Below, piece by piece: positions 7,301 to 36,384 of a stretch of DNA of 63,597 nt; position 1 is the stretch's first letter; the number at the start of each line of letters is the position of its first letter. The notes under the pieces are model-generated. The model saw only the letters and a list, made by a program, of their open reading frames with translations. It did not search any database and had not been told where the DNA came from. The stretch is from an uncultured virus (IMG/VR IMGVR_UViG_3300031134_000653) (taxonomy: Duplodnaviria; Heunggongvirae; Uroviricota; Caudoviricetes), in IMG/VR virus record IMGVR_UViG_3300031134_000653; one strand, 5' to 3'. The position numbers were made by a program, and so were the translations under genes.

Positions 7301-7348
7301 AACGAAGAATATCGGGTCATGGTAACTTTTGGTATAGAATCACTGCTT

Positions 7349-7921: not shown

Positions 7922-8013
7922 CTAAACTGGTAACAGGCAACCAAAGTTAATCTGAACCTGGTTGCTTTAAATGCGATGCATATAAGGGTGTAAGACATCT
8001 GTTAGGGAGCGAA

Positions 8014-8460: not shown

Positions 8461-8499
8461 GTCTATCGATTCATTCTGAACATAAAGGATTTGCAATTC

Positions 8500-8979: not shown

Positions 8980-8981
8980 AC

Positions 8982-10667
8982 ATGCCTGACCAAATTATTG
9001 CTACTGTCCCAGAGACTGCTAAAAATCCAGGAGTTTCCCTCTTTGATTTACTGAATATGCCCAAAGGCATCTCAGACCCATTAATTTTTGTGAAACCTGG
9101 AAAAGCCGAGCAGTCAGTAGAGAGTAAAGACCCTAACTATCTGTACTTTGAAGACGCAAAGCCAGTCAAGTCATCAGACAAGGGTGACATTTATGCGTAT
9201 CCCAGCAGGTACCACGGAAAGTCAGAATCTGGCTTTCCGTTGGAGTCCACTGATCTTTACGTGAACGATAAAACAGTGATTGTCAAAACTGTTTCTCATT
9301 CAGAGGGTGTCTCGAAGACAGATAAGAAATGGCACCGTTGGCAGACCACACGAACCATCGTGTTTTCACTGAAACAAGAACGTTTTGGCATGCCTCATCT
9401 TCGCATTTACGAAATTCTCCCTAAACGAAAGACTCGGCACAGGACTTTTAGAGATGTATCCCGGTCCTACAACATTCCCCAGTTGCACACAAGTTGGTCT
9501 ATGTCCCGCAAGGATATAGACCATATTCAGCATGCAATAGCTGGTAAAGTTTATGTCGGTTCCAAAGAGGATAGTTATGCTGGTGGCGTAGACTCCAGTG
9601 CTGCCTACTACCATGCTTTGTACCATGTAGTACAGAAGTACAAAGAGCTTGGTGGTGCTATTGACTTGTCCGCTATCGATTCTAAGAACCTATTTACCTT
9701 CTTAGCCTATCCAAGTCTTCGAATGTTCCAGTCTTCCAATCTGAAGAACATTGCTTTTGCTGTGCAAGCTAATAGCTCGGCTTGGTTGCATGAGCCAGAT
9801 GTCCGCGTGTTTGTACGAAAAGTCTTTGGCAAAAAAGCTGTCCGTAAAGATGTCATCAAAGCTGTAGCTAAAACAACTGATGCTTTAGCCATCAGCATCT
9901 GCAGCTACATCAAAAACTATGTACCTGCAGACTGGATTAGGGATTTACTGAACGACCCAGATAAGTACCGTCTTATCACACCAGCAAAAACTCGTGCAGT
10001 GTGGGACACTCCTTCCACAGTTCTTTACCCTGAACTGAAGAAACTTTTCAAGAACGCTTCTGAACATGAGAAACGTAAACTTGTCTTCCTGCCTGCAGAT
10101 GATGACAAAAACAGTGAAAGAATGTTCACTGACGCTTTGCTGTCGTTGTCCAAAATTTCAGAAGAAGACCTGGTTGAAAATTGGAAAGTCCTCGACTTTA
10201 CAAACTGGAAGACTCTTCACGACAAGTTAGCTATTGTCCACCGAAACATCAAAATCAAACCCGTCCCAATTCCTCAGGACGGTCTCACTGGTCTACTGGA
10301 CGGGAAGAGTTTCCAAGGGTTGAACCCTGAAGGAACCGAAAAAATTTACACCATCTCATCTCCTAAAGTGAACCATGACTTGTATGATTGGGGTAACGAG
10401 ATGAGTAACTGTATTGCCAGTTATAACGACCGAGTGCTTAGGAACGAAACCTACGTGTTCGCCGTGTATGAAGGTAAGACACTGTTCGCTAACATCGAAA
10501 TTTACGGTGAACGAGTGCGGCAGTTCTACGCAAAATACAACGGACGAGTTGAACCACATCTTCACACAGCTTTGCAAACTGTCTTGGATTCTGCTTTGCT
10601 TGAGCTCAGAGCTCAGGAGGAAGTCGCTGAGAAGAAGAAAAAATCTAAGCGAAAAACAGCTGTTTGA
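8982..10667 (+). CDS. PcfJ-like domain protein
   Basis: C-terminal LHD...DLYDWGNEMSNCIASY...IEI...RQFYAKYN pattern. Confidence 0.75.
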   Translation: MPDQIIATVPETAKNPGVSLFDLLNMPKGISDPLIFVKPGKAEQSVESKDPNYLYFEDAKPVKSSDKGDIYAYPSRYHGKSESGFPLESTDLYVNDKTVIVKTVSHSEGVSKTDKKWHRWQTTRTIVFSLKQERFGMPHLRIYEILPKRKTRHRTFRDVSRSYNIPQLHTSWSMSRKDIDHIQHAIAGKVYVGSKEDSYAGGVDSSAAYYHALYHVVQKYKELGGAIDLSAIDSKNLFTFLAYPSLRMFQSSNLKNIAFAVQANSSAWLHEPDVRVFVRKVFGKKAVRKDVIKAVAKTTDALAISICSYIKNYVPADWIRDLLNDPDKYRLITPAKTRAVWDTPSTVLYPELKKLFKNASEHEKRKLVFLPADDDKNSERMFTDALLSLSKISEEDLVENWKVLDFTNWKTLHDKLAIVHRNIKIKPVPIPQDGLTGLLDGKSFQGLNPEGTEKIYTISSPKVNHDLYDWGNEMSNCIASYNDRVLRNETYVFAVYEGKTLFANIEIYGERVRQFYAKYNGRVEPHLHTALQTVLDSALLELRAQEEVAEKKKKSKRKTAV

Positions 10668-10721
10668 GTTGTAAATGTCAGGGGCACTTGATACAGTGTA
10701 GTTACTTACCAAGGAGAGAAA

Positions 10722-11195
10722 ATGACTAACGTAGACTACTCGAAGCATGTAGCAGCTGCATACATTGATAAAGCTGTCGCTGACGGCTGGACTGTCAGTG
10801 TTGGACCCTGGGGTTCCAGAGAAGATGACAACACTGTCATCCTCCGCAGAGAGGTCCCTGAGCTGAACGGTTACTTCAACATCTGGGCGGTGGACCGTGC
10901 CATGGTTTTCCCTGGACAGAAGACTATCCCTGACCAGCACATCGCTGGATGGTTTGTCGAGTACACTGAGGGAAAGTACGCCGCTGACCGTGAGCAGGCT
11001 CTGAGCTTGAAGCCTACTATGTTCACTGAAGCGTATGACCTGGATGTGTTCCTGTCTGCTGCTAACCAGTGCCCTCAGTGTGGAATCCAGGTTCCTGCTA
11101 ACCAGCTGACTGGCGTAGCTTTTGCCAACGCAGCATGCGACGCTTGCCTTCCTGCCACTCGTCAGCGACTTGAACCTGCTGGTTGGTACAACTGA
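10722..11195 (+). CDS. hypothetical protein with C-terminal zinc finger
   Basis: CPQC...CDAC; AAGGAGAG RBS. Confidence 0.8.
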   Translation: MTNVDYSKHVAAAYIDKAVADGWTVSVGPWGSREDDNTVILRREVPELNGYFNIWAVDRAMVFPGQKTIPDQHIAGWFVEYTEGKYAADREQALSLKPTMFTEAYDLDVFLSAANQCPQCGIQVPANQLTGVAFANAACDACLPATRQRLEPAGWYN

Positions 11196-11292
11196 CTTCA
11201 GACGCCTTGCAAAAACCCTGCTGAGCTGCAGGGTTTTTGTGTTTAAGCCGATAGTTTCATCAGGAAACATTCAGAAGAAAGGCATGTTGGAA

Positions 11293-11520
11293 ATGGCTGA
11301 CATGGACAACTACATTCCCTCCGAGAATGAAATTGACGAAGTACTCACGCAATACGATTCATGGTTGCAGGAAGAGTACGAAACTCATGGCGACCCTGTT
11401 GTCGCAATTGACAGAGCCACCGAAAGAGTTACCAGCTCCTCCTCCCACAAAGTCTTCTTTTGGGTGGCAGAAAATGATAATGCCCGTATCTACGATGTTG
11501 ATGATACAATAGTCAAATGA
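11293..11520 (+). CDS. acidic hypothetical protein
   Basis: ORF coupled to next gene; CCGATA at 11248-11253. Confidence 0.65.
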   Translation: MADMDNYIPSENEIDEVLTQYDSWLQEEYETHGDPVVAIDRATERVTSSSSHKVFFWVAENDNARIYDVDDTIVK

Positions 11521-11927
11521 CTAATTTCTTCAAAGGTGAGTACGACCACGAAGCACAAGCAAGTTACTTGAAATTCTGTGACTGCGAAGTAGAACACACT
11601 GCTGATTACACGCTGTCAACAAACTATGTGATGTTGGCTGACTACGGAGTCCCTGCACATGGGGCTCAAGAGCATATCATTGGTGTCGAATTCTTAGCTA
11701 ACCCGAATGATGAGAAGCAATTGCGTGAAGATTTAGAGCTACTGGAACTCACTGATGAGCAGAAGACTCTCATTGTGGCAGCTCGTGTCTGGTTCCCCCA
11801 GGAAGAAGCTGAAGAAAAAGAGGAAGCTTTGAGACAGCTTGTTGCGAATGACCCTCAGACGGTAGAGGCTCACAAGAAGATGCACAGCAACCCTGAGCTA
11901 TTCACGCCGGCAGCTGATTTACCCTGA
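11517..11927 (+). CDS. DUF2283-like protein
   Basis: YDHEAQASYLKF...DY...IIGVEFL. Confidence 0.55.
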   Translation: MTNFFKGEYDHEAQASYLKFCDCEVEHTADYTLSTNYVMLADYGVPAHGAQEHIIGVEFLANPNDEKQLREDLELLELTDEQKTLIVAARVWFPQEEAEEKEEALRQLVANDPQTVEAHKKMHSNPELFTPAADLP

Positions 11928-11936
11928 CTTACATTA

Positions 11937-11980
11937 AATGAAGAACCCCTCACCATGTTTCAGGTGAGGGGTTCTTCATT
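11937..11980. terminator. bidirectional hairpin, 18-bp arms
   Basis: AATGAAGAACCCCTCACC-atgtttca-GGTGAGGGGTTCTTCATT. Confidence 0.85.
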
Positions 11981-11985
11981 GTTAG

Positions 11986-12243
11986 TTACTCAGCGAGGTA
12001 GTCACCGAGGACGAGGTTGATGGCTTCGTTCAAATCAGTAGTCACTTGGACATCCTTGGCGTAGAACTCCGGGGAGAACTTCGGCCAACGCTCACCGAAC
12101 TGTGCCTTCATTCGAGACTCAGCGATGTCGCTAAGACGAACGATAACATCCTCAACAATAGCCGGGGACACAGCGAGGATGAAGCGGTCTGAACCTTCCA
12201 TCTCAAGCGGCTCTGCGGCAAAAATTAGACTAATCGTTTCCAT
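11986..12243 (-). CDS. hypothetical protein, leaderless
   Basis: TTGACA-17-TAGTGT-7-ATG. Confidence 0.7.
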   Translation of the reverse strand: METISLIFAAEPLEMEGSDRFILAVSPAIVEDVIVRLSDIAESRMKAQFGERWPKFSPEFYAKDVQVTTDLNEAINLVLGDYLAE

Positions 12244-12281
12244 GAGGTAAACACTACCTCATGGAAACGATTATGTCAAGC

Positions 12282-13046
12282 TTAGAAAAGCTTCAGGAAG
12301 TCCTGCTCCATGTAAGCTCGCGTGGCGTCCTTGGACACCCAACGGCTTCGAGTGACAGTCGTCGGAGCATCAGCAGGGCGACGCACACCTGCAGGAACAG
12401 CCTGGGCTGCATCCTGCTCGAACGTCTCCTTGAACGCCACACGACCGTTGAAGAAGCCCTCAGGAAGCTTCTCGTAAGGCGTACCCTCCAGAAGCCGCAG
12501 ACGGTCCTTGGAGGAGACACTCATCAGGCTCTTGTGGGAGTGCAGCACGTTAGCTGCCATCGTCACAGCGTTCTTCTGAGCATCGAAACGACGCCAACGC
12601 ACGTACTCATCCACCTCGTCCACATCAGCAAGCGTGTGAACACGAGCATCGAACACAGGAATCTGACCGACTCCATCAAACTTAAGAGCCTGCATGAACA
12701 GAGCAGTCACAGTTGCAGCACCGATGGAAAGCATCTTGTCGACACGACCACCGAACCACATCTGGCTGTTCTCACCAGCAAGGTCCGAGAAGACGATGCT
12801 GATTTCGTCCGACTGGGTGTAACCAGCGATGGCTCCAGGGATGGTCGCAGCCATCTTACGGGTCACTTCATCCATAACGCCCATGAAGTTCAGGTCGTAA
12901 GGCTTCTCGAAACGCTTGGTGAATGTGGAGAAGTTCTTACCATCAAAACGGATGACAGCGTAAGTCTTCTCCGGGAGGTAACGGAAAGAGTCCTTCTCCA
13001 GACCCTTGAACTTCACTCCGTCAGGGAGCATGTTGTTATCAGACAT
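12282..13046 (-). CDS. tRNA(His) guanylyltransferase Thg1-like protein
   Basis: RFDGKNFSTFT, KPYD, YTQSDEIS, WFGGRVDK, FDAR, WRRFDAQKN. Confidence 0.92.
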   Translation of the reverse strand: MSDNNMLPDGVKFKGLEKDSFRYLPEKTYAVIRFDGKNFSTFTKRFEKPYDLNFMGVMDEVTRKMAATIPGAIAGYTQSDEISIVFSDLAGENSQMWFGGRVDKMLSIGAATVTALFMQALKFDGVGQIPVFDARVHTLADVDEVDEYVRWRRFDAQKNAVTMAANVLHSHKSLMSVSSKDRLRLLEGTPYEKLPEGFFNGRVAFKETFEQDAAQAVPAGVRRPADAPTTVTRSRWVSKDATRAYMEQDFLKLF

Positions 13047-13356
13047 TAGCCTTCTCTTCTGTGTTGCGTGCCATGAGCTGAAGCCACAGCAGGTCATAAG
13101 TTCCTGAATCGACAAGCATTCGCTCGTCGTTGTTCAAATCGTACACGTAAAACGCTCCGATGTCCAGCTGCTTGTCTGCAGGGAAAGCATCGTACCATGC
13201 AGCAAACTCGTCAAGGGTGTCCCAGCCATCCAGACCAGGGAACATGCAGCGACCGTTCTCGTCATTGTCCGTGACGTTCTCGCCGTGAATCTCCTCATCA
13301 AGGTACGAATCCCAGCCGGCAGCATAAGCGTAGTAACGCTTCTCATCAGTAGTCAT
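13039..13356 (-). CDS. acidic hypothetical protein, leaderless
   Basis: TTGACA-17-TAATGT-7-ATG; overlaps Thg1 start. Confidence 0.75.
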   Translation of the reverse strand: MTTDEKRYYAYAAGWDSYLDEEIHGENVTDNDENGRCMFPGLDGWDTLDEFAAWYDAFPADKQLDIGAFYVYDLNNDERMLVDSGTYDLLWLQLMARNTEEKANV

Positions 13357-13404
13357 GAAGAGAACATTACCAGTTTATATATCCCCTGTCAAACCTTTTG
13401 GAGG

Positions 13405-14055
13405 TTAGCTTCTGGGAGTCAGTCTTCTCTGCCAAATCATGGGAACCTCAATGTAAGTTTCTGAATCCTCAGACCATTCAACTTTTAGTCCTTGATCTTT
13501 CAAAGCATCGAACACTTTACGTGCTACAGCTTTACTTCCTTCTTCACTACTGGGAATGGAATTGAAGTATAAGAGCAAACCTCGATGGGAGTCGTACGCT
13601 TTTTCGCTGGACTGCTCGTTGTAGAACACATACCCTTCAGCGTCAGGATACATTCCTTTTTCAGCTTTGGTCTCGTAATCGACCCAGGCACAAGAGTTAC
13701 AACACCATTCATCGTGATGTCCAACAATGGTGGGTGCCAACTGTGCATAAGCTGCGTCAAGTCGATCATTGTCTGTTTCGAATGGCCATGTTTGTTGTTT
13801 CAGTACTTCTTTGTCCCAAATTTTTTCAGCCATGGCAGGAGCAACAGCTGCTGCAACTTCTAACAGCTCAGCAGAAACATCTTCATATTCACTATAGTCC
13901 AAATCGTTTGCCTGAGCTAACTCTTCCAGATAATCAGGGAAGTAATCTGGTCGCTCGGTGAGTGCTTTAAGGAACTCCTCATAAGAAGGAGCAGCCCTTG
14001 CCAAATAATCCGAAGGAGTAGTGAAGAACAAAGGATCAGGAAGCTGATAATCCAT
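13405..14055 (-). CDS. DUF6891-like protein
   Basis: TDNDRLDAA...CCNSCA...GYVFYNEQ...LKVEW...WQRR. Confidence 0.7.
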   Translation of the reverse strand: MDYQLPDPLFFTTPSDYLARAAPSYEEFLKALTERPDYFPDYLEELAQANDLDYSEYEDVSAELLEVAAAVAPAMAEKIWDKEVLKQQTWPFETDNDRLDAAYAQLAPTIVGHHDEWCCNSCAWVDYETKAEKGMYPDAEGYVFYNEQSSEKAYDSHRGLLLYFNSIPSSEEGSKAVARKVFDALKDQGLKVEWSEDSETYIEVPMIWQRRLTPRS

Positions 14056-14135
14056 GAGTAAAGCCTTTCAAATAGTATGTTCAATTATCTCACATGAACC
14101 TCAGCTAAGCCTAAAAACCGTTTTTGACTTTACAG

Positions 14136-14165
14136 TTGACAACACGAAACACTCCATGCTATAGT
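14136..14165 (+). promoter_or_regulatory. sigma-A type promoter
   Basis: TTGACA-18-TATAGT with TG extension. Confidence 0.75.
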
Positions 14166-14272
14166 GAAGTTATGACATTCTACTAGACATTTATTCAGTA
14201 CCTGGATTCTTCCTGATGCCTGATGAGATACTCAAACCATTTCATCTAACATCTAATCAAAGGAAAAATACC

Positions 14273-14869
14273 ATGTCCCAGAACAACTTCCCCCTGTACG
14301 ATATTGCCGTTAAGTCGATTGAGATTCAGAACGAGCAGTACAAGTATGAGCAGGAGCAGCAGAAGCAGAAGCGTGAGTACGAAAGCCGACTCGCGGAATG
14401 CCAGGCTGAGCTTGCAGTCCAGATTTCAAACTACAACATTGTTGTCACTAACACCCTGAACAAGTTCCAGAGCGAGCCTGGCATTGTTTCTCGTGTGAGC
14501 AGTGAGCTCTACATCCCCCGTGATGCTGTCATTGTGAAGGCTTACACGCCTTACACCGCTACAGAGCCTCACTACGTCTTCAAGACCAGCTACGGCGAGA
14601 AGAAGATTCCTGTTTCGCTGTTCACGAACGACCCCATCAAGGTTGCCCAGTACACGCGAAAGCTTGTTCGTAAGTACCAGGCTGAGGCTCGTCGTGCTGA
14701 GTTGAAGAACTTGCAGGTGACTCAGGCTGCTGCTGAGAAGCAGCTTGCTAAGGCTCAGGCTGAAGCCAACGAAGCTGCACGTGAGGTTGAGCGTATTGCT
14801 GCTCGTATTGAAGCTCAGAAGAAGCGTGAAGAGAAGAAGGCTGCACGTCAGGCAGCTGTGACCGCATAA
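14273..14869 (+). CDS. coiled-coil hypothetical protein
   Basis: AAAGGA RBS, strongly biased codons. Confidence 0.8.
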   Translation: MSQNNFPLYDIAVKSIEIQNEQYKYEQEQQKQKREYESRLAECQAELAVQISNYNIVVTNTLNKFQSEPGIVSRVSSELYIPRDAVIVKAYTPYTATEPHYVFKTSYGEKKIPVSLFTNDPIKVAQYTRKLVRKYQAEARRAELKNLQVTQAAAEKQLAKAQAEANEAAREVERIAARIEAQKKREEKKAARQAAVTA

Positions 14870-14878
14870 CAGAACAGT

Positions 14879-14920
14879 AAAAGGTCGGAACAAACCGTAA
14901 CTGGTTTGTTCCGACCTTTT
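14879..14920 (+). terminator. hairpin, 18-bp arms
   Basis: AAAAGGTCGGAACAAACC-gtaact-GGTTTGTTCCGACCTTTT. Confidence 0.85.
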
Positions 14921-14966
14921 TGTTTGTCCTTTTCGAAGCAGCAGGCGACGGAATTTGATGACAAAA

Positions 14967-15006
14967 AGAAGAGGCTAACCTCCGTACTGCAAGGTTAGCC
15001 TCTTCT
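14967..15006 (-). terminator. hairpin, 15-bp arms
   Basis: AGAAGAGGCTAACCT-10-AGGTTAGCCTCTTCT after RNase H. Confidence 0.8.
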
Positions 15007-15015
15007 CTTTGGGTT

Positions 15016-15840
15016 CTAAACGTTGCGGTTGAACACAGCGTAAAGAGCGTCAGTCTCTCGAACGAAGTCCTCAGCGACATGACCAGCGGTGAACCGCTTA
15101 CGGGCGTGACGGGAGATGCTGTCAGCGATGTTGTTCAGGCGGTGGGCACGGTGACCCTTCACCCACTCAACCGTAACAGCACGGCTGTTCACAACCTCCA
15201 TCGTAGCCTTAGCCATGCTGACAAGACCATACTTGCGAGCCTCACGAGGGACGATGCCCTCAACAAGGTCGTAGTTGAACATGTCAACTGCGTTCGCACT
15301 GTCAGAGAAGATGTGGATACGACGAGCAGTGCTGTCAGCGTTAGCGACAACAGCGTTCATGATGCCCTCAAACTCAGAGACGTTCACGTTCACAAGACCA
15401 GAGTCACCGAAATCGTAACCACCGTTCACACCGTCAGAGCACCAAGCCCAAGCTGCAGGGATGTTCGTAACACCGTCAGGGCTGAGGTGACCACCCGAAG
15501 CGTCAGAGCCGATGTAAAGGATGTTCTGGTTCACCCGACGACGAGGAGCCGTCTGCTCGAAAGCACGGTCGAAGAACGTGTTCACGCTCGACTCCGTGAT
15601 AGGCATGAAGTGAGCCTTAGGGAACAGGACAAGCATGTTGTCCCGCGTCTGGGCGTTCATCTGAGGGGAGATGACAGTGATGTCCTCACCAGTGGAACGG
15701 ACAAGGAACTCAATGACAGTACCCATCTGAACGGTAAGGTCGCCGTCAGGTGCCGTCATCGTACCCTTGCCGTGGTCCGACAGGTACGCCCAGTCCGAAC
15801 GGGTGTTTCGCATCTTGCGGATGAATACTACGCTGGTCAT
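15016..15840 (-). CDS. ribonuclease HI-family protein with N-terminal extension
   Basis: IGSDAS, NVSEFEGI, IFSDS, EWVKGH, NNIAD catalytic pattern. Confidence 0.85.
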   Translation of the reverse strand: MTSVVFIRKMRNTRSDWAYLSDHGKGTMTAPDGDLTVQMGTVIEFLVRSTGEDITVISPQMNAQTRDNMLVLFPKAHFMPITESSVNTFFDRAFEQTAPRRRVNQNILYIGSDASGGHLSPDGVTNIPAAWAWCSDGVNGGYDFGDSGLVNVNVSEFEGIMNAVVANADSTARRIHIFSDSANAVDMFNYDLVEGIVPREARKYGLVSMAKATMEVVNSRAVTVEWVKGHRAHRLNNIADSISRHARKRFTAGHVAEDFVRETDALYAVFNRNV

Positions 15841-15949
15841 TGGGTTCCCCTTTCTCTTGTCTGAAGCATAGCAGAGGATTCTGCAGAAAGTCAAACAATT
15901 TCGAGAATCTTTTGACAGAAACATCTCTGGTATAGTTAGAAATACGATT

Positions 15950-17908
15950 ATGTCTAAACTTGTTCCCATTTCTCCTGAGTTGGCTGCCGAATGGCATCCA
16001 ACCAAGAACAACGTTGACATTGCCACAATCTCCGCCGGCAGTCACAGTTCAAGATGGTGGATAGGTCCTTGTGGACATGAGTTTTCCGCCTTGGTAAAAC
16101 ACCGATCAAAAGGTTCAGGATGTCCTTATTGTGCTGGAAAAGCAATTTTACCAGGCTTCAATGATCTGGCTACAGTTCGACCAGACTTGGCTCAAGACTG
16201 GGATCATTCTCGTAATTACTTGGCTGCTAATTCTGTTGGAATCTCCAATAAAATTCCTGTTGCTTGGAAATGTTCAGTTGGTCACGAATGGGTGAGCTCG
16301 GTTTCAGTAAGAAGTCGCAAACTCACGAATGAATGCCCTGTATGTCAAGGTAGAAAAACAATCAACCTTTTACCTGAACCTGTGGTGAAAGCAGTGCCTA
16401 ACAACTTGGCTGTAACAAACCCTGAGCTTTTGTCCAGTTGGGACAGTGGTCTCAACCAAGGATTAAGCTACGAACGGCTAACTCCAGGTTCAGAGATAAA
16501 AGCTTGGTGGAACTGCGAAATAGGCCACTCATACCAAATGCCTATTGCCAAACGAACTAACGGTAGAGGATGTCCTTTCTGTTCAGGTAAGTCAGTCCTG
16601 CCTGGTTTCAACGATTTAGTGACAAAGGACCCAGCTTTAGCTCAAGAATGGCATCCTACGCTCAATGGAGACCTCAAGCCCCGAGAGATTTCCGCTGGTT
16701 CGCATGCCAAATTCTGGTGGCAATGCAGTCAGGGCCATTCGTGGCAGGCTTCCATCGACAATCGAGGTCGAAATAAGAGAGGCTGTCCTTATTGTGCGGG
16801 GAAAGCTGTTCTCATTGGATTCAACGATTTAGCTACTACAGAACCAGTGCTTGCTACGGAATGGCATCCCACCCTAAATCTTGCATTGAGTCCTCAATCC
16901 GTTAGTAGAGGGTCAGACCAAAAAGTATGGTGGCAGTGTGACGAAGGACATGAATGGCAGATGTGGGTTTATGCTCGCTCAGGAGGACATGGCTGTCCTG
17001 AGTGTTGGGCAAAGAGCTACATTTCGAAACCTGAAAGAGAACTCTATGTTTTCCTTACTTCGTTAGGCTTTGAAGTCATTCAGTCTGACAGAAAAGTCTT
17101 AGGTAAAAATCAAGAGATTGATCTGTACCTCCCTGAGAAGCAGTTTGGTATTGAGTTCAATGGACTATACTGGCACAACGAGTATTGGAAAGATTCCCAG
17201 TACCATCTACAGAAGTTTGAAGCTGCTAAAGCTGCTGGAGTTCAATTAGTACAAATTTGGGAAGACGATTGGAATAAACGAAAGAACACTGTTCTTCGAG
17301 CGTTAGCTCACAAGCTGGGAGTCTCAAAAAAATTAGCGGGCCTTTATCCAGAGCTTTCTGTCGAAACAGAAACCGTTTATGCTCGCAAGACTTCAGTGAC
17401 GGAGCTATCTACCGAGCAGGCACGTACTTTTTTGGAGATGAATCACATCCAAGGTTTTGCCTCTGGCTCCTGTTATCTCGCTTTGTCAGATGACAATAGT
17501 CGTGTTCGTGCAGTTATGGTCCTCAAAAAGGAAGCAGATAACACTTTGAACATTGTCCGCTACGCGACAGCTGGAAGTGTTACAGGTGGGTTTACAAAAC
17601 TGTTAAAGCATTCTGAGAAGACGTATTTTCCGAGTTCGTTCATTACGTTCGCTGACCATACCATCAGTGATGGTGGGTTGTATGAGAACAATGGTTTTAC
17701 TGCTGATAAAGAACTACCACCAGATTACATGTATGTTGCAAGAGCAGAACGTAAACACAAGTTCGGTTACCGTCTTAAACGGTTCCAAAACGACCCTGCC
17801 CTTGTTTGGCAAGAAGGACTGACAGAACGAGAGCTTGCTCTACTAAACAATCTTCCTCGAATCTGGGACGCAGGTAAAACACGATATCGCTTGAATTGCT
17901 CAAACTAG
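15950..17908 (+). CDS. zinc-ribbon repeat protein with PD-(D/E)xK nuclease and C-terminal GNAT-like region (Hef-like homing endonuclease-type)
   Basis: About 5 WxCxxGHxW...GCPxC repeats; EIDLYLP..FGIEFNGLYWH; NHIQG, GGFTKLL, FAD, IWDAG. Confidence 0.8.
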   Translation: MSKLVPISPELAAEWHPTKNNVDIATISAGSHSSRWWIGPCGHEFSALVKHRSKGSGCPYCAGKAILPGFNDLATVRPDLAQDWDHSRNYLAANSVGISNKIPVAWKCSVGHEWVSSVSVRSRKLTNECPVCQGRKTINLLPEPVVKAVPNNLAVTNPELLSSWDSGLNQGLSYERLTPGSEIKAWWNCEIGHSYQMPIAKRTNGRGCPFCSGKSVLPGFNDLVTKDPALAQEWHPTLNGDLKPREISAGSHAKFWWQCSQGHSWQASIDNRGRNKRGCPYCAGKAVLIGFNDLATTEPVLATEWHPTLNLALSPQSVSRGSDQKVWWQCDEGHEWQMWVYARSGGHGCPECWAKSYISKPERELYVFLTSLGFEVIQSDRKVLGKNQEIDLYLPEKQFGIEFNGLYWHNEYWKDSQYHLQKFEAAKAAGVQLVQIWEDDWNKRKNTVLRALAHKLGVSKKLAGLYPELSVETETVYARKTSVTELSTEQARTFLEMNHIQGFASGSCYLALSDDNSRVRAVMVLKKEADNTLNIVRYATAGSVTGGFTKLLKHSEKTYFPSSFITFADHTISDGGLYENNGFTADKELPPDYMYVARAERKHKFGYRLKRFQNDPALVWQEGLTERELALLNNLPRIWDAGKTRYRLNCSN

Positions 17909-17946
17909 CAGATGTACTCTTTAACTAACGGAAAGGTATACCTATC

Positions 17947-18363
17947 ATGAATTCCAAAGAACTACAAGATGCAGAATTGAAGCAAGCCGCTACCTATGTA
18001 GAAAAGTTGAGTGAATATAGTAGGCTTTATACGTTACGGATGAGCGTAACAGCATGGCTGAATGCAATAAATTTGCAAACACATAAAAACACAGGTAATA
18101 TTAGTGTTCTCAAAAGAGAAGAACATACGCCTGAAATGATTGCACAACTAACATTGTTTCTACGGCTGATAGAACATATTGAAATTGATTCTTCCAAACC
18201 CGATGTTTATGCTATCAAACTATTCTTAACTGCATATCATATAAATCTCAGCACTATCACTGATTCAGTGGAAGAACCTATCTTCATTTCTAAGACTCTC
18301 CACCTTTTGTTCGAACAAAATCTAGAACGGTTAAGCGCCTTGTCTAAGCCTTATCTACCTTAA
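17947..18363 (+). CDS. hypothetical protein, AT-rich
   Basis: ORF, GAAAGG RBS. Confidence 0.6.
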   Translation: MNSKELQDAELKQAATYVEKLSEYSRLYTLRMSVTAWLNAINLQTHKNTGNISVLKREEHTPEMIAQLTLFLRLIEHIEIDSSKPDVYAIKLFLTAYHINLSTITDSVEEPIFISKTLHLLFEQNLERLSALSKPYLP

Positions 18364-18364
18364 G

Positions 18365-18472
18365 CTAATTGTTGGAAAGAATGATGATGGCTTCAGTCTC
18401 AGTGGACAGGTAAGAGTTCTGATGGGTTGCTACTGCTGGTGTTGCTGGGTTTTGGTTTGTGTTCTCAGACAC
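18365..18472 (-). CDS. 35-aa small protein
   Basis: Not in track. GTG start after AAAGGA; MSENTNQNPATPAVATHQNSYLSTETEAIIILSNN; CCGATA at 18541-18546. Confidence 0.5.
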   Translation of the reverse strand: MSENTNQNPATPAVATHQNSYLSTETEAIIILSNN

Positions 18473-18563
18473 GATTTTCCTTTGGATTGCGGTTGATTTC
18501 CCTACATCTTTGGAAGGTTTGGTTCAGGGTTCACTATTTTTATCGGTCACCTGGTGTTACTTC

Positions 18564-18947
18564 TCAAGCAGGGAGCTCATTCAGCATTTTACAGATGTCT
18601 GCAGCTTGCGTTTCAAACTCTTCAGCTGTAAGCGCGTGAAGAGTGCAGGAGGTTTTGCCATCAGCATCAGCAGAACCCCAAACAATACCAGGAAGCTCAC
18701 CTCGATGAATCACTTCCTCCACCCTCGTGACATGGTACTTCTGTGTAAGTGAACTGTAGAAGACGTTTCCCTTGAAAGCTACATAGTGCAGTTCAGGACC
18801 GTCGACCAGTTCAATTTCGGCAACATAGTACAATGACCGGGAGTGTAGACGGTTTTTGAGGTCAGCAAAGTCCTGTGCGACTGCTTTGTCTGTAAAGATT
18901 TTCTGAATTTCGGTATGGACTTCGTATTCGTGCAGCACAATAAACAT
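18564..18947 (-). CDS. hypothetical protein, paralogue family A
   Basis: IFTDKAVAQDFADLKN / ALTAEEFETQA pattern shared with 19760-21346 genes. Confidence 0.7.
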   Translation of the reverse strand: MFIVLHEYEVHTEIQKIFTDKAVAQDFADLKNRLHSRSLYYVAEIELVDGPELHYVAFKGNVFYSSLTQKYHVTRVEEVIHRGELPGIVWGSADADGKTSCTLHALTAEEFETQAADICKMLNELPA

Positions 18948-19031
18948 GTTTTCTCTTTCCTAAAAACAATGGGTTGACCAACTATACCATGAGCAGGTAA
19001 GGTCAGTCAACCCATTGGATGCAGTTGAGAG

Positions 19032-19733
19032 TCAGTTCTTTCGAAGTAGCTCATGCTGCAGGTCTGAAGCTGCGTTGTAAGCATTGGCTGTGTAGATAGC
19101 TTTCAAATTTTTGTCTGAATTATCAGCTCCGTTGAATTTTGACATAGCAGACAGACTTCCCCACTGTCGGTCAAAATCAATACGGCCACGGTCTTTTACC
19201 TTGTTCAGGTAAGAGTGGAACTGTTCCTCTGAGTAGCCTCGTTGAATTCCAGCTTGAACATATTCGAGAGCTGATGTCAGCTTCATTATTGTGTCAAGTC
19301 GCCCTGGTTTGTTACGGTCTTTCTGCATTTTGTACTCAGCTTCATACCTTAAAATAAGGGTCTTAGCTTTATCGAAGTATGCTTGTTGATCTTCAGTAGG
19401 CTGAAGACCGTTGTAACCATAACTTGCAGAATTTTGATTACGAAGCAAAGCTCTAAAATAGGATGAATCCACAACACTGGCTCTGCCTGAAAGCCACTGA
19501 TATCCAGGTGCTTTTATCTGGTCAAGGTTCTCAGCATTGTCTTGCTCTTCAATTTTCTTGTACTGGCGTTTCTTCTTCTGGACAGCAGCGACTTCAAGCT
19601 TAGCTGTTTCATAAGCATCATAGTCACCATTCTCTACTGCTTCATCAAGACGGATGAAAGCTCCGTGGTAGCGGCAGGCTGCTGGCTGCTTAGCACGACA
19701 AGGGTAGTCTGGTTTCAATGCACTTTTACTCAT
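19032..19733 (-). CDS. hypothetical protein with N-terminal CRAKQPAACRYHG tag
   Basis: Tag matches N-terminus of 42969..43691. Confidence 0.8.
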   Translation of the reverse strand: MSKSALKPDYPCRAKQPAACRYHGAFIRLDEAVENGDYDAYETAKLEVAAVQKKKRQYKKIEEQDNAENLDQIKAPGYQWLSGRASVVDSSYFRALLRNQNSASYGYNGLQPTEDQQAYFDKAKTLILRYEAEYKMQKDRNKPGRLDTIMKLTSALEYVQAGIQRGYSEEQFHSYLNKVKDRGRIDFDRQWGSLSAMSKFNGADNSDKNLKAIYTANAYNAASDLQHELLRKN

Positions 19734-19759
19734 ACCCTATATCTAACAACTATTTTGGG

Positions 19760-20248
19760 TTAGAACGGTGAAGGCATGCTTTCATTTTGAGCATGTGGCA
19801 GTTGCTCATTCAGCTCTGTCACTAAAACACGGGCTTTTTGAAGAGCTTCTCCAGCGGTTGCCCCGTAAGTTGAATACAGCCAACCCAGTTCGTGATTCGA
19901 CATGTCATCTTTGAGAGTCTCAGGCACTTTAGTTCCTTCAAGAACAATCTGCATCGATGGAGACTGGTTGTACGAATAAACACGGTCAGCAACCGGAACA
20001 AGCTCCCCTGATTCGTCCATGAGAAAACGTGATACTTCCACTTTGAACTGAGGCACATAGCGAATGTCAGTTTCTGTGTTCAGTTCCTGCTGGCGGACAA
20101 CCCATAAGCCGTCAGGGATTTCGTTAGCTCTTTCCTGAGCGTTCAACGCATCACACACAGATGCAGCAACATCCAAGTCAGAGAAAAATGGGTGATGATA
20201 GTGAACCATTTCACCGTCATTCATCTCAACTACGAAAATATCAGCCAT
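19760..20248 (-). CDS. hypothetical protein, paralogue family A
   Basis: VAASVCDALNA...YGATAGEALQKA. Confidence 0.75.
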   Translation of the reverse strand: MADIFVVEMNDGEMVHYHHPFFSDLDVAASVCDALNAQERANEIPDGLWVVRQQELNTETDIRYVPQFKVEVSRFLMDESGELVPVADRVYSYNQSPSMQIVLEGTKVPETLKDDMSNHELGWLYSTYGATAGEALQKARVLVTELNEQLPHAQNESMPSPF

Positions 20249-20291
20249 GCAGGGTTCCTTAGATATATGGTTATATCCAAGTATATCAGAC

Positions 20292-20729
20292 TCAGCTAAC
20301 CAAAGAGAGAACAGGCACTTGGGCTCGGTTGAGTTTCTCCGCAGCAGCGATAGCTTTAGCCTGAACTTCTTTCTCTGTGCGACCATAAACTGTAGCTGAC
20401 CAGTACTTCCATAATGAGTCAGGTTCGCTGATTTTATCCTCAGGCAGAGGAGTGCCGGCTGGAACTAACGTAATTTTTGGTTCTTGTGAGCTGGGAGTGT
20501 ACTTCTTGCTGAATGGGGCAATACCAACCTGCTGGCACACTTGAGCAACATACTCTTTAGTCTCTTCACGAACTGGTGTGGTGACAATACCCCAGTTATC
20601 AGACCCAGTTGCTTCATTCAAAGCTTTACAAGCAGACTTCGCTGTGTCTTCATTGGTGTAAGCAATGTGCTTGATTGTCGAGTTACAAGGGCCATTCAGG
20701 TTAGTGACAGTGTAGATAAGGTCAGACAT
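20292..20729 (-). CDS. hypothetical protein, paralogue family A
   Basis: TAKSACKALNEA...YGRTEKEVQAKA. Confidence 0.75.
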   Translation of the reverse strand: MSDLIYTVTNLNGPCNSTIKHIAYTNEDTAKSACKALNEATGSDNWGIVTTPVREETKEYVAQVCQQVGIAPFSKKYTPSSQEPKITLVPAGTPLPEDKISEPDSLWKYWSATVYGRTEKEVQAKAIAAAEKLNRAQVPVLSLVS

Positions 20730-20818
20730 TGATGTTTTGTTTCTTTCAAAGAGGGGGACAAAACACTTATCGGATTTTTTGGTTGTTTCTTCGACACCGT
20801 TTTTGTTTTTGGTTCAAA

Positions 20819-21346
20819 TCATGAACGACGTAAGGCTTCCTCAAACTGCTCATCATCACCAACAGTGATTTCATGTGTGCGGTTCACCTGAATGGCAAGC
20901 TCCACAGCTGACTGCTTCGCTTCTTCGTAGGTGCGGCTTGATACGACGTAAGTCCAGTGTTCATTACGTGCATGAGGAGGGTATTCAGCTGTCTCAGGAA
21001 GCTCCAACTCTTCAGGAAACAGCAGCACATTTTCCACATAACCGGCTGGCTCATAACGTGAACGCTCTGTGCTCCAGGAGACCCGCCACATGACAGCAGG
21101 CGAGAAAGATACTGAATCCTGAATGAGGTAAACCTCGCGGATGCTCCACGGTTCAGTAGGGAAATCTGTGTCCCTGTCCTGAGGTCCAATTGCTGCGTTC
21201 AACGCGTCACGTACTGATTCAGCAGTCTGTTGGTTCTCGTAGGTGAGAGTATGCAAGAACACAGGGTCAGGATGCACAACCTCATAGGTCTTCTTGTTCC
21301 GAGGAGGTGTACCAAAAGCCTGAAAGAAGGTATTAGGGATAGTCAT
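20819..21346 (-). CDS. hypothetical protein, paralogue family A
   Basis: TAESVRDALNAA...SRTYEEAKQSA. Confidence 0.75.
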   Translation of the reverse strand: MTIPNTFFQAFGTPPRNKKTYEVVHPDPVFLHTLTYENQQTAESVRDALNAAIGPQDRDTDFPTEPWSIREVYLIQDSVSFSPAVMWRVSWSTERSRYEPAGYVENVLLFPEELELPETAEYPPHARNEHWTYVVSSRTYEEAKQSAVELAIQVNRTHEITVGDDEQFEEALRRS

Positions 21347-22630: not shown

Positions 22631-23254
22631 TTAACTGGGCGCACTATCTGTCAGGTAAATCCAGGAAAGCTCAGCCGGTTCGTTAGGATAGAAGTAGTCA
22701 GGAACGAAATCAGGGTCACTTGTAATTTTGATGTAGTCGTTTCTATATTCAGTCCCTTCAGCTCCCCCATAAAGAACCCAAGGGTTGCCTATTGAAGAAA
22801 TCTCTTCAGAAAGGGCGTCCCCGTCGCATAAAGTGTAGTCATCCTGATCTGCTTCATGCTCAGTCAAACATTTCACATCAAATTGAGGTCCGACACGTTC
22901 CTGGACCCAACCCACTAAAGCATGGTCATGATGAGGGTCTTGTTCCAATTCGGAGTAAAGGTCTTCAGGAGTCTGCTGGTCTTCAATGTAATACCAGTCT
23001 ACAAAACGGTCGTTGAGTTCAAGGTGGACATTACCGTTGCTGAGGACAGTTTTCTGTGTCCCTGCAAACCATTCAAGTACTATGCTGTAGTCTTCAGGGT
23101 AGCGAGATTCTATCTCTTCATGCTCTGCTGTGACAGTCTCTTTGACCGCTTCACATGTTTCGTGGTTCAGGCAGGTAAAATCAGCAACCAGACGCTGAGC
23201 AGTAATAGTCAAAGACAGGTAATGATCGTCAGCTTCTGGTTTGAGGTTAATCAT
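22631..23254 (-). CDS. acidic hypothetical protein with internal duplication
   Basis: CLNHE.C/CLTEHE..C halves; leaderless TGG-TAAAGT-6-ATG. Confidence 0.7.
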   Translation of the reverse strand: MINLKPEADDHYLSLTITAQRLVADFTCLNHETCEAVKETVTAEHEEIESRYPEDYSIVLEWFAGTQKTVLSNGNVHLELNDRFVDWYYIEDQQTPEDLYSELEQDPHHDHALVGWVQERVGPQFDVKCLTEHEADQDDYTLCDGDALSEEISSIGNPWVLYGGAEGTEYRNDYIKITSDPDFVPDYFYPNEPAELSWIYLTDSAPS

Positions 23255-23319
23255 GTTCCTACTTTACCACACAACTGTTTTGTGGTAAAGTAGGAGGATA
23301 ATAAGTTACGGAGATAACT

Positions 23320-24903: not shown

Positions 24904-24955
24904 GCTTAAACAGTAAAGGCAACCCATTCACTTGGGTTGCCTTTACTGTTTAAGC
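24904..24955. terminator. bidirectional hairpin, 23-bp arms
   Basis: GCTTAAACAGTAAAGGCAACCCA-ttcact-TGGGTTGCCTTTACTGTTTAAGC. Confidence 0.85.
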
Positions 24956-25201
24956 GTAAATGCCTTTGATTGACACCGTGTTCTGAATGTCAACATGCCT
25001 CATATGCTCCATTACATGCTGATCTGTTGATTCGATGAAAACCTTGCGGTAATGGATGCGTCCAGTTTCTTCTTTCACTGACGGCATAACTACAGCGTTA
25101 GTTTTTGTCTCATCCGAAGCAAGGCGAGTAACCAGGTTAGCAACGGTGGTGTCCAGAAGACGGTGATCGGAGGAGCTAAGTACAAAAGTGAAAGTTCTCA
25201 T
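24950..25201 (-). CDS. divergent ribosomal protein uS10/NusE-like protein lacking the extended loop
   Basis: SDHRLLD...LV...MPSVKE...HYRKVFI...VDIQNTVSIK aligns by eye with S10 DHRLID...LPTRKE...HLRLVDI...LDLAAGVDVQ. Confidence 0.65.
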   Translation of the reverse strand: MRTFTFVLSSSDHRLLDTTVANLVTRLASDETKTNAVVMPSVKEETGRIHYRKVFIESTDQHVMEHMRHVDIQNTVSIKGIYA

Positions 25202-25256
25202 GCCCAAAGATTACCATGCATAGATGAAGTACCAGTTTTATCTATACAGAATTTAC

Positions 25257-30893: not shown

Positions 30894-31928
30894 CTACTTG
30901 GTCTCAGCGATGAGTCGTTCATCAACCATCTGGATAATAGGGAAATTCATATGGTCGCCTTTTTTGAACTTGCCCCATCGTTGGTAGCTTTCGTCGCTTT
31001 GTGAGTAACCTCTGCTGTATTGGCTGTTGAGGTCTTTTCTGTCTGAAGCAAACTCAAAACGCTGTGAACGGCGGTTACCTGTGATGCGGAACTTCGTGTT
31101 GCGAGGTAGGAGTATCTCTTTCTCCAGGGATTGGATGTCTCCTCCTCTTGATTTTTCCTCTGGCTGAAGGGAAGCTCCTTGCTTTGAGAGTATCTCCATG
31201 ACTACATACCCATGGTTTTTTGTTCCACCATTTCTGTCATGCATGTGAGCCATAATGAATTCAGGGTCAGCTGTAGTTGACATGAACCCTTTCTCCTTGA
31301 AAGCTTCCCCTGTTTTGAAGTACCGTTCGATGTATTCGTTAGGTGACACTCCGGCTGGCACTCTGAAGAAACGGTACAGTTTACGTGGACCTTCAGGTTC
31401 CTTCGCGGAAGCCAAAGCTTCGTCTAAATTCTTGATATCCCGGGGAACATTCTCCTCTAAGTCTTCTCGATAGAAAGGGTTCTCTCGAATCAGCTCTGGA
31501 AGTCCTTTCTTTCTCAGAACAGTGTTCACTAATTCGAATAAAGTCATTGTGTAACGTCTTACGCTGTTTGACTGGTCTCGGGTGAGGCTGTTAGCCCACT
31601 CTTCTTGCTCTTCGAAAAGCTTAGCTGTGTGGGCAAGGCGTTCTTCAGTGTCAAGACCAGTTATAGCTTCACGTGATTTCTTACTCAGTAAATCCAGCAG
31701 TTCTTGCGGTATCGGCTTCTGATTCGGCTTCTCCTGAAAAGGTAACGTCTCAGGAAGGTGCTCTCTCACCAAGTCCTTGTGGGCTTCTTTCCAACTCTGG
31801 ACGGCTTTCTCTGCAAGACGTTCTTTGTTGTACTCATTGCGATGCTTGTAACGTGCTTTTCTTCTGACATTAGCTATGGCGTCTGCGTATTCACAGCGTT
31901 GTCCGCCATCTGCTTTTGCTTTGCACAT
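30894..31928 (-). CDS. ADP-ribosyltransferase (VIP2/exoenzyme R-S-E type) with MCKAKADGGQRC N-terminus
   Basis: KLYRFF, KGFMSTT, EKEILLPRNTKFRI. Confidence 0.85.
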   Translation of the reverse strand: MCKAKADGGQRCEYADAIANVRRKARYKHRNEYNKERLAEKAVQSWKEAHKDLVREHLPETLPFQEKPNQKPIPQELLDLLSKKSREAITGLDTEERLAHTAKLFEEQEEWANSLTRDQSNSVRRYTMTLFELVNTVLRKKGLPELIRENPFYREDLEENVPRDIKNLDEALASAKEPEGPRKLYRFFRVPAGVSPNEYIERYFKTGEAFKEKGFMSTTADPEFIMAHMHDRNGGTKNHGYVVMEILSKQGASLQPEEKSRGGDIQSLEKEILLPRNTKFRITGNRRSQRFEFASDRKDLNSQYSRGYSQSDESYQRWGKFKKGDHMNFPIIQMVDERLIAETK

Positions 31929-32156
31929 AGGATTCCCTTTTCTCCGTCTTTTGACATACTCTTTATCGGTCAATTCCTTATGTTTGCAAGGAATTTAGAG
32001 GGGTCAATTATGAAACGAGGCTGATTATATAGGAACTTTATCTTGGCTCCAGTCACGCCCATACTTTACTATAAGTGCATATATGAGTGGTTTTAGATAC
32101 CCTGGTGCGATTAGATCAAGACTGGTAGATTGAAGTCCTATGAAGGAGAGAATCCA

Positions 32157-35190: not shown

Positions 35191-36384
35191 TTACTGTGAA
35201 TTTAGCCACGTTCCTATCAATTTTACTGTCTTGCTCAGGTCTTTGTCTTTACGAGAATATGGAATATTTAGTTGGTATAAATGCGGATGACTTAAAGGTA
35301 TCATTGCCAATTTATTCTCTCTTATTCTAATAACTCGAAAACCATTTTCTATCAACAGAAGAGTCTTTTGTACGTCTTTCTTCACTACGTCTTTATCACG
35401 ATGCCATAAAAATCCATCATATTCTATAGCAACATCATAATTTTTGTATTTACCTAATATATCAGGATATATTATTCTATCAGATAATACTAGTTTAGTT
35501 CTATGGGTGTTGGGCACTTCAGCCAGTAAAGTTGTAGCGAGTATGTCTCGATAAGCCTGTTCTATCTTTGAAGTTGAAGTAGAGCAACACTCGGGGCATT
35601 GCGTTCCTTGCTCTTTTGTTCGATTGAAAACAGAAGCTGTCCATCTATGACCTAAAGAGCAAACCCATTTTATTTTCTTTTCACTCCCTGAGGTAACTTC
35701 GTTAGGAGTAAGAGTGTTGTGCAAATAATCCCACTCTTTTAGTAAAATAGGATGAGTGGTAGCTAAGTTCGTTACTCCAACGTCTGGAGAATAACGGGAA
35801 CAGTATGGACAGCCAGACCCCCGCACTCTAGTACGTGGAGAAGACTGCCAGCTGTGAGTTTTGTTGATAGAACATTGCCACCATACCTTTTTGGCCGTTC
35901 CAGTAGTAACTTCTTCTGGAGTAATGTCATTCTTTTCTGGGTGCCATTGAATAGCAAGTTCTGGGTGTTTAAAACGGAAGTCATTGAACCCGACTAGGAT
36001 TTGTTTACCGCTACAAATCTTACATTCATACTTGTTCAATGTTCGATCAGCAATTCTATCCTCCCATAGATGGTCAGAATAAGATGAACATCTCCACCAA
36101 ACTTTTTTGTTTGAACCAGCTTGTACAGGCTTATTGGGAATACCATTGCGTTCGATAACCCATTGTTGCCAAACATCAGGATAAGTAAATTCTATACCTG
36201 AACAAGTAGGACATCCTCTGGCGGTGCGAGCAACATCTCTAATAGGCATAATCCACTTGTGTTGATTCAAACACACAAAGTAAGATTTTTTAGGAGAGTT
36301 GACTGAGAGAGCTAAAACTTCTGGTTCAGGAAAATAATCTAAATCATTTTCTTGATAATACTGGTATAACGTTTGACCAATCAT
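35191..36384 (-). CDS. zinc-ribbon repeat protein with C-terminal PD-(D/E)xK (Vsr/DUF559-like) nuclease
   Basis: KKVWWxC..H.W...CPxC repeats; PDI..IEYDGFLWH...D..KT...GFRVIRIRE. Confidence 0.8.
   Translation of the reverse strand: MIGQTLYQYYQENDLDYFPEPEVLALSVNSPKKSYFVCLNQHKWIMPIRDVARTARGCPTCSGIEFTYPDVWQQWVIERNGIPNKPVQAGSNKKVWWRCSSYSDHLWEDRIADRTLNKYECKICSGKQILVGFNDFRFKHPELAIQWHPEKNDITPEEVTTGTAKKVWWQCSINKTHSWQSSPRTRVRGSGCPYCSRYSPDVGVTNLATTHPILLKEWDYLHNTLTPNEVTSGSEKKIKWVCSLGHRWTASVFNRTKEQGTQCPECCSTSTSKIEQAYRDILATTLLAEVPNTHRTKLVLSDRIIYPDILGKYKNYDVAIEYDGFLWHRDKDVVKKDVQKTLLLIENGFRVIRIRENKLAMIPLSHPHLYQLNIPYSRKDKDLSKTVKLIGTWLNSQ

What the first reader, a model, noticed from the sequence alone, without database searches (positions are those of the whole stretch)
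24950..25201. Natural loop-less S10/NusE homologue
Seen: the 83-aa protein keeps the S10 globular core pattern (DHRLLD; MPSVKE; HYRKVFI; VDIQ..VSIK) but replaces the roughly 20-residue extended loop with a few residues. It is monocistronic, leaderless and outside any ribosomal operon. Established: engineered E. coli S10 lacking this loop retains NusB-dependent antitermination function but loses ribosome incorporation. Inference: a transcription-only NusE used for antitermination or as a NusB/NusG decoy, which fits an element full of strong terminators.
Basis: partly seen in the sequence, partly recalled or inferred. Interest (0 to 1): 0.75.

Follow-up and report, generated by a model that had tools for sequence, protein, structure and literature searches.

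The report
Loop-less S10 mimic on giant element
A giant non-chromosomal DNA element, probably of leaf-dwelling actinobacteria, carries a slimmed-down copy of ribosomal protein S10 that has lost the parts needed to sit in the ribosome but seems to keep the surface that grips the transcription factor NusB, so it may hijack or jam the host's rRNA transcription machinery.

Summary
Confirmed. The 83-aa ORF (25201-24950, minus strand) is a real gene (dN/dS 0.09) of a family of at least 12 divergent proteins of 82-91 aa; several lie on 637-805 kb contigs. The family profile finds uS10 (E 1e-7); the fold's best match is engineered loop-deleted E. coli S10 (3D3B). 15-17 loop residues and the RNA-binding basic residues are gone in 12 of 12; H15, D19, R72, P43 mostly stay. 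A model with Microbacteriaceae NusB scores 0.88 against 0.02, possibly from memory of 3D3B. The NusG pocket residue M88 is lost in 12 of 12 and that face is the least conserved, so I favour a NusB decoy or jammer (0.4) over a working antiterminator (0.22); the predicted NusB face as a whole is not specially conserved, so a new partner stays open (0.2). The terminator argument is weak. Host probably Microbacteriaceae; phage or megaplasmid unresolved. Binding, expression and function are untested. JGI already labels some members 'S10'; I found no paper describing them. This scan noted the same gene on another genome (e1-7842643).

The parts
24950..25201 (-). Gene for the 83-aa loop-less uS10/NusE homologue (P0001). 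P0001 residues H13, R14, D17, V24, P40, R52 equal E. coli H15, R16, D19, V26, P43, R72; R68 stands where M88 is.
25208..25216 (-). Extended -10 element TGG-TAATCT, 6 nt before the ATG: leaderless promoter of the element-wide type; no TTGACA-like -35 seen
   Evidence: the ortholog in L001 has the same spacing
24904..24955 (.). Perfect 23-bp inverted repeat overlapping the stop codon, shared with the convergent gene ending at 24899: probable bidirectional terminator
   Evidence: I3; -39.9 and -41.3 kcal/mol, z -10 and -12; also in L001
25257..26063 (-). Upstream NERD-domain gene, syntenic in L001; context only, no functional link shown
   Evidence: PF08378 E 8e-14; dN/dS 0.04

Best explanation
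The element captured rpsJ from a Microbacteriaceae-like host and stripped it to a ribosome-excluded NusE mimic. Made from its own leaderless sigma-A-type promoter, it binds host NusB through helix 1 and strand 2, as S10 does. It cannot enter the 30S subunit (loop and strand-1 basic residues lost) and probably cannot dock on the NusG KOW domain (M88 pocket and strand 4 changed). It would therefore form dead-end NusB complexes, perhaps still able to sit on boxA through R16/H15, that take NusB from host S10 and weaken boxA-dependent antitermination (rRNA, and CRISPR arrays where those use it). Shown: homology, fold, loop loss, purifying selection, residue pattern. Predicted: NusB binding (about 0.7 likely). 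Inferred: loss of ribosome and NusG binding, decoy action, target.
For: Of 41 positions conserved in 90% or more of 57 host S10s, only D14, H15, D19, P43, R72, V96 are kept in 8 or more of 12 family members. H15, R16, D19, V26 contact NusB (PMC8341153 Fig. 6 legend); P41 and P43 are modelled stacking on NusB aromatics (PMC13753749 section 6); R16 and H15 form the boxA U8 pocket (PMC3177189), and position 16 is R/K in 8 of 12 family members against 0 of 30 Microbacteriaceae S10s. ESMFold2 with Leifsonia sp. Leaf264 NusB: 0.88 in 3 of 3 runs, best of 3 controls 0.02; the mark was reached by 116 of 157 solved complexes and 2 of 215 mismatched pairs; contacts agree 100%, partner pLDDT 85 or more; interface is helix 1 plus strand 2. 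R5, R7, R9, K11 are K/R in 2 of 48 cells; positions 9, 11, 45, 46 bind dsRNA. V84 and M88 line the NusG pocket (PMC8116511): M88 0 of 12, V84 3 of 12 (others L, M, I); NusG binds strand 4 and the loop before it (PMC5224480), a set with mean identity 0.19 against 0.32 overall. dN/dS 0.091, 16 synonymous and 6 non-synonymous changes, p 2e-7.
Against: The complex score may come from memory of 3D3B, 3R2C and the like: it shows likeness, not binding. The 19 predicted NusB-interface positions are no more conserved within the family than random positions (0.31 against 0.32; 61% of random sets reach it; buried positions were not excluded). G38-P39 is lost in 12 of 12, P41 kept in 4 of 12, V26 in 2 of 12. 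D14, D19, R72, V96 could be kept for folding alone. M88 also varies among Actinomycetota (19 of 27 M, 5 Q), and NusG adds partly through backbone strand pairing (recalled), so NusG binding is not excluded. Host NusB used in the model is a stand-in. No expression data cover the gene.
Confidence: 0.4

Rival explanations
1. Working transcription-only NusE: it pairs with NusB, loads on boxA-like sites, reaches RNA polymerase through NusG or an element factor, and protects the element's long transcripts (or host rRNA) from Rho without draining ribosomal S10.
For: Engineered loop-less S10 keeps antitermination (PMC3177189, PMC5224480). NusB model passes. R16/H15 boxA pocket kept. Position 84 stays hydrophobic in 12 of 12. 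NusG:S10 binding occurs in Actinobacteria (PMC13753749 section 9).
Against: M88 0 of 12, NusG face least conserved, dsRNA contacts lost. Transcription units in the window are short, many leaderless and closed by their own hairpins. No N-like or NusG-like gene among the 93 ORFs scanned against Pfam, but the window is under a tenth of the element.
Confidence: 0.22
2. Repurposed scaffold: the S10 fold now serves another partner (an element protein, RNA polymerase or an RNA), and the kept S10 residues are structural.
For: The family conserves positions of its own: S12, T35, S78-T79-D80, L29, R68, K/R73. The predicted NusB face is not more conserved than average. About 20-24% identity to host S10.
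Against: H15 and P43 are exposed NusB contacts and are among only 6 host-conserved positions kept; the model places the native interface with low error.
Confidence: 0.2
3. NusG decoy: binds the NusG KOW domain, blocking Rho or ribosome coupling.
For: Second Foldseek hit is the NusE:NusG-CTD complex 2kvq (same NusE construct, so not specific). A free loop-less NusE can bind NusG-CTD without NusB in Thermotoga.
Against: M88 0 of 12; strand 4 and the preceding loop are the most variable part. Not modelled: only one complex job was available.
Confidence: 0.08
4. Alternative ribosomal protein that replaces host S10 in 30S subunits, or the sole S10 of a reduced 0.8-Mb cellular genome.
For: Viral ribosomal proteins can enter host ribosomes (PMC13157829). 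Contigs of 777-805 kb are the size of small cellular genomes.
Against: The loop is needed for 30S insertion (PMC5224480) and strand-1 basics are gone. No rplC or other ribosomal gene nearby, no tRNA or Rfam match, 20 of 86 ORFs with any Pfam hit. Not found in GTDB contigs.
Confidence: 0.06

Closest known systems
Engineered NusE/S10 delta-loop (E. coli 46-67 replaced by Ser; PDB 3D3B, 3D3C, 2KVQ; A. aeolicus 3R2C; T. maritima 2MEW)
   Same: Same four-strand, two-helix core; best structural match (TM 0.81); loop removed at the same place; H15, R16, D19, V26, P43 present in P0001.
   Different: Natural, under selection, 7-9 residues left in place of 24; also lacks the RNA-binding basics, G38-P39 and M88, which the engineered proteins keep. 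About 20% identity.
Bacterial uS10 / NusE (rpsJ; PF00338, TIGR01049), nearest the Microbacteriaceae type
   Same: D14, D19, R72, V96 invariant; signature S12/T35/V37 (2 or more of 3) in 11 of 12 family members, 29 of 30 Microbacteriaceae, 2 of 27 other sampled Actinomycetota.
   Different: No ribosome loop, below all curated cut-offs, not in the S10 operon, not found in 401 Microbacteriaceae or 401 Actinomycetota genomes searched.
Virus-encoded ribosomal proteins (bS21, bL12, HPF and others; 10.1101/174177, PMC13157829, PMC11748809)
   Same: Host ribosomal-protein gene captured and kept by a mobile element.
   Different: Those are near-complete proteins thought to act in the ribosome; uS10 was not named in the main texts searched, and this one seems kept for the non-ribosomal job.
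Lambda N / HK022 Nun use of host Nus factors
   Same: A mobile element acting on the NusB-NusE-boxA system.
   Different: Those recruit host NusE with an unrelated arginine-rich protein; here the element encodes its own NusE-like subunit. No N-like gene or nut site was identified.

Membership tests
uS10 superfamily (homology) | Sequence-profile homology | tested here: met
   Family profile versus PDB sequences: uS10 chains fill the top of the list, best E 1e-7; 6 of 10 members hit PF00338 at E up to 1
uS10 superfamily (homology) | S10 globular fold | tested here: met
Functional ribosomal protein uS10 (rpsJ) | Curated model cut-off (PF00338, TIGR01049, NF001861) | tested here: not met
   13 against 21.2 bits; 16.3 against 72.75; 16.7 against 85
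Functional ribosomal protein uS10 (rpsJ) | Ribosome-binding loop, residues 46-67 | tested here: not met
   7-9 residues instead of 24 between positions 43 and 68 in 12 of 12
Functional ribosomal protein uS10 (rpsJ) | Basic RNA-binding residues of strand 1 (5, 7, 9, 11) | tested here: not met
   K/R in 2 of 48 cells
Functional ribosomal protein uS10 (rpsJ) | Position at the head of the S10 operon | tested here: not met
   Window and L001 neighbours
NusE (antitermination subunit) | NusB-contact residues H15, R16, D19, V26, P41, P43 | tested here: inconclusive
   P0001 has 5 of 6 (no P41); family H15 9, R/K16 8, D19 12, V26 2, P41 4, P43 8 of 12; whole predicted face not enriched in conservation
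NusE (antitermination subunit) | Binds NusB | tested here: inconclusive
   Model 0.88 against best control 0.02; 116 of 157 solved and 2 of 215 mismatched pairs reach the mark; may be memory of solved complexes
NusE (antitermination subunit) | NusG-KOW pocket V84 and M88 | tested here: not met
   M88 0 of 12, V84 3 of 12; binding itself not modelled
NusE (antitermination subunit) | boxA binding and terminator read-through | not testable with these tools
   Short recalled boxA-like motifs gave scattered hits with no null
Phage-encoded ribosomal protein | Carrier is a phage | tested here: inconclusive
N/Nun-type antitermination system | N-like protein and nut (boxA-boxB) site | not tested
   Only 64 kb of about 780 kb available

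The most novel reading that the evidence does not exclude
Giant Microbacteriaceae elements encode a natural separation-of-function NusE that acts as an anti-Nus factor: it traps host NusB, possibly on boxA itself, and so shuts down rRNA or CRISPR-array antitermination. That would be a new kind of host-takeover or anti-defence protein made from a ribosomal protein.
Probability: 0.3. Interest if true: 0.87.

Novelty: new variant of a known kind. Interest (0 to 1): 0.72.

Why it matters
S10's two jobs were separated only by engineering; here evolution appears to have done it, and went further by removing the RNA and probably the NusG surfaces. It gives a ready tool to test whether NusB-S10-boxA antitermination matters in Actinobacteria, an open question (PMC13753749), and suggests that mobile elements can capture a ribosomal protein for its moonlighting job. 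It also marks a group of roughly 0.8-Mb elements that are missing from the viral and genome collections searched.

Tried and rejected
Single-sequence searches gave only weak or no hits: PDB phmmer E 0.44, PHROGs none, ESM Atlas none for P0001 or P0009, phage and plasmid tblastn only chance hits. No family member in viral contigs, GTDB contigs, 5 handle genomes (only canonical S10), 401 Microbacteriaceae genomes or 401 Actinomycetota genomes (1 hit, a full-length S10); these are samples, not proof of absence, and the sample includes genomes marked unpublished (G445, G461). E. coli S10 against phage records gave 13 full-length matches at 52-98% identity, several plainly bacterial contigs, none loop-less. 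No longer or fused form among 8000 candidates (weak). BFVD fold search gave only generic ferredoxin-like folds. Expression: the one run on record as RNA (X2, phyllosphere label, small share) has 6 short contigs on the stretch, none over the gene; X1 is only guessed to be RNA; contigs cannot show starts or levels. Window DNA 1-20000 had no match in the 5 handle genomes, and Leaf264 loci are 64-68% GC against 47%, so that strain does not seem to carry this element. P0005 (2924-aa repeat protein) was dropped as a chance hit; P0027 (66 aa, internally deleted copy of P0010) and near-identical cluster members were left out of the 12-member counts. Luo et al. 2008 is not held; I rely on its description in other papers. 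Supplementary tables of the viral ribosomal-protein papers were not seen and could list uS10.

Full report
Observation. The minus-strand ORF 25201-24950 gives an 83-residue protein, P0001, with the motifs quoted. It is a real gene: the ortholog on a 788,683-bp contig (L001; 15.7 kb syntenic at 94%) differs by 16 synonymous and 6 non-synonymous changes, dN/dS 0.091, p 2e-7, within the range of 14 neighbours (0.008-0.23). A contig of another run spans the whole gene (X4 record 25).

Homology. Alone it scores weakly: Pfam S10 E 0.13, the three NCBIfam S10 models E 0.007-0.15 and nothing else. A search of 1.84 billion representatives gave 11 hits, of which 9 are other 82-91 aa proteins at 29-38% identity and one a chance repeat protein; three more came. 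The 10-sequence profile ranks uS10 chains first in the PDB (best E 1e-7) with a 17-18 column gap at the loop. The AF2 model (pLDDT 87.7) matches best the engineered loop-deleted E. coli S10 of the NusB complex (3d3b_J, E 7.6e-7, TM 0.81); the independent aligner also puts uS10 proteins first (Z 12.4, rmsd 1.8, 83 aligned). JGI names 5 of the 23 cluster members listed 'ribosomal protein S10', so the label exists in a database, without note of the deletion.

What is lost and kept (E. coli numbers, 12 representatives). The segment between P43 and R68 is 7-9 residues against 24 in 7 of 7 canonical proteins; residues 46-67 are the loop needed for 30S insertion and dispensable for antitermination (PMC5224480 and PMC3177189, passages). 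Strand-1 basics 5, 7, 9, 11 are K/R in 2 of 48 cells; positions 9, 11, 45, 46 bind dsRNA in the NusB-NusE structure and in the 30S (PMC3177189). Of 41 positions conserved in 90% or more of 57 actinobacterial S10s, six are kept in 8 or more of 12: D14, H15, D19, P43, R72, V96. H15, R16, D19, V26 are the named NusB contacts (PMC8341153, figure legend), P41 and P43 are modelled on NusB aromatics (PMC13753749 section 6), and R16 with H15 makes the boxA U8 pocket. Position 16 is R/K in 8 of 12 but in 0 of 30 Microbacteriaceae hosts. V84 and M88 line the NusG pocket (PMC8116511, one passage): M88 is absent in 12 of 12, though it also varies in hosts (28 of 30 and 19 of 27). NusG binds strand 4 and the loop before it (PMC5224480 section 24); a 13-position set for that face, partly chosen from recall, has mean identity 0.19 against 0.32, lower than 99% of random sets.

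Results against my reading. The 19 predicted NusB-interface positions are not more conserved than random ones (0.31, 61% of random sets reach it; buried positions not removed). G38-P39 is lost in all, P41 kept in 4, V26 in 2 of 12. The family conserves its own positions (S12, T35, S78-T79-D80, R68, K/R73), which could serve another partner.

Complex model. With NusB of Leifsonia sp. Leaf264 (28-row alignment) ESMFold2 scored 0.88 in 3 of 3 runs, best of 3 controls 0.02; the mark was reached by 116 of 157 solved complexes and 2 of 215 mismatched pairs; contacts agree 100%, partner pLDDT 85 or more. The interface is residues 13-14, 17, 20-21, 24-25, 28, 33-41, 48, 50, the native helix-1/strand-2 face. 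Like complexes are solved, so this may be memory; the NusB is a stand-in. NusG was not modelled.

Gene layout. TGG-TAATCT lies 6 nt before the ATG; TAnnnT stands at -12/-13 in 15 of 63 hand-picked starts (P 3e-11), so a leaderless transcript is likely. A perfect 23-bp inverted repeat (24904-24955, z -10 to -12) closes the gene and its convergent neighbour. Co-transcription with the NERD gene 55 nt upstream is not excluded. The window holds 22 perfect repeats with arms of 12 bp or more, none in 3 shuffles; at least 6 lie between convergent ORFs. These do not argue for antitermination: NusB-NusE on boxA acts against Rho, and intrinsic read-through needs an N-type protein (PMC10931766 section 2.7 passages).

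The carrier. P0001's own contig is 140,203 bp; near-identical alleles lie on contigs of 776,559, 782,330 and 788,683 bp, a distant member on 637,428 and 805,269 bp, and neighbouring genes share those contigs. The window has no tRNA or Rfam match, 20 of 86 ORFs with a Pfam hit, genes common in large phages (thymidine and adenylate kinase, Thg1, RNase H, R2K ligase, PcfJ, an ADP-ribosyltransferase) but no convincing virion gene. Phage or megaplasmid is unresolved. The host is probably Microbacteriaceae: the LCP protein's best five plasmid hits are Clavibacter, Cnuibacter and Cryobacterium; the pilin-like N-termini match 8 loci, 7 in Microbacteriaceae; and 2 or more of S12/T35/V37 occur in 11 of 12 family members, 29 of 30 Microbacteriaceae S10s and 2 of 27 other sampled Actinomycetota (also best mean score). 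The family was not found in 401 Microbacteriaceae or 401 Actinomycetota genomes searched.

Mechanism. Most likely (0.4) a NusB decoy or jammer: it binds NusB, cannot enter ribosomes, probably cannot hand over to NusG, and so weakens boxA-dependent antitermination of rRNA or CRISPR arrays (the targets named in the PMC13753749 abstract). Rivals: working transcription-only NusE (0.22), scaffold with a new partner (0.2), NusG decoy (0.08), ribosomal or cellular S10 (0.06). NusB binding under either of the first two is about 0.7 likely.

Novelty. Ten full-text searches showed no natural loop-less or element-encoded S10; term searches in four papers on viral ribosomal proteins and huge phages found no uS10 or NusE in the main text (supplements not seen). 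The library lacks most subscription journals. It is a homologue, not a member, of functional uS10; it probably works like half a NusE. Class: new variant of a known kind; interest 0.72.

Noticed in passing
window 12231-12273 and 23250-23302; L001 about 9947-9993: Some long inverted repeats overlap promoters and start codons instead of gene ends (one arm holds the -10 box or the ATG). The one upstream of the S10-like gene is perfect in L001 but degenerate in the window, as template-switch mutation would give.
   Followed up: partly
window 39676-41262 (+) and 41264-42184 (-): Two convergent genes with a pilin-like N-terminus shared with Microbacteriaceae chromosomal proteins; one carries RCC1 repeats. 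A Leifsonia homologue (L016) lies next to type IV pilus-like genes, judged by eye.
   Followed up: partly
window 30894-31973 (-): Intact ADP-ribosyltransferase-domain protein (PF03496, weak Alt-like PHROG hit), strongly conserved (dN/dS 0.02); nearest plasmid hits in Streptomyces. Its N-terminus resembles those of ORFs 19032-19733 and 42969-43691 (C..K....C..H/Y motif, by eye).
   Followed up: partly
window 51968-54103 (-): AIM24 gene preceded by two paralogous unknown genes, each with its own leaderless promoter pattern.
   Followed up: no
window 15950-17908 and 35191-36384: DUF4379 zinc-finger repeat proteins with a restriction-endonuclease-like domain, homing-endonuclease-like; the second lies in a low-GC (38%) stretch, 34-38 kb. 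L001 lacks about 2.5 kb (15879-18364) covering the first.
   Followed up: no
window 18564-21346 (-): Run of related short genes (18564, 19760, 20292, 20819) with a weak DUF7336-like N-terminal pattern, possibly a paralog array.
   Followed up: no
proteins P0004, P0026: A sub-branch keeps S10-like LPT and LPAGV motifs; P0004 is recorded from marine (Tara) and other sources on short contigs, so the family may reach beyond leaf and soil hosts.
   Followed up: no
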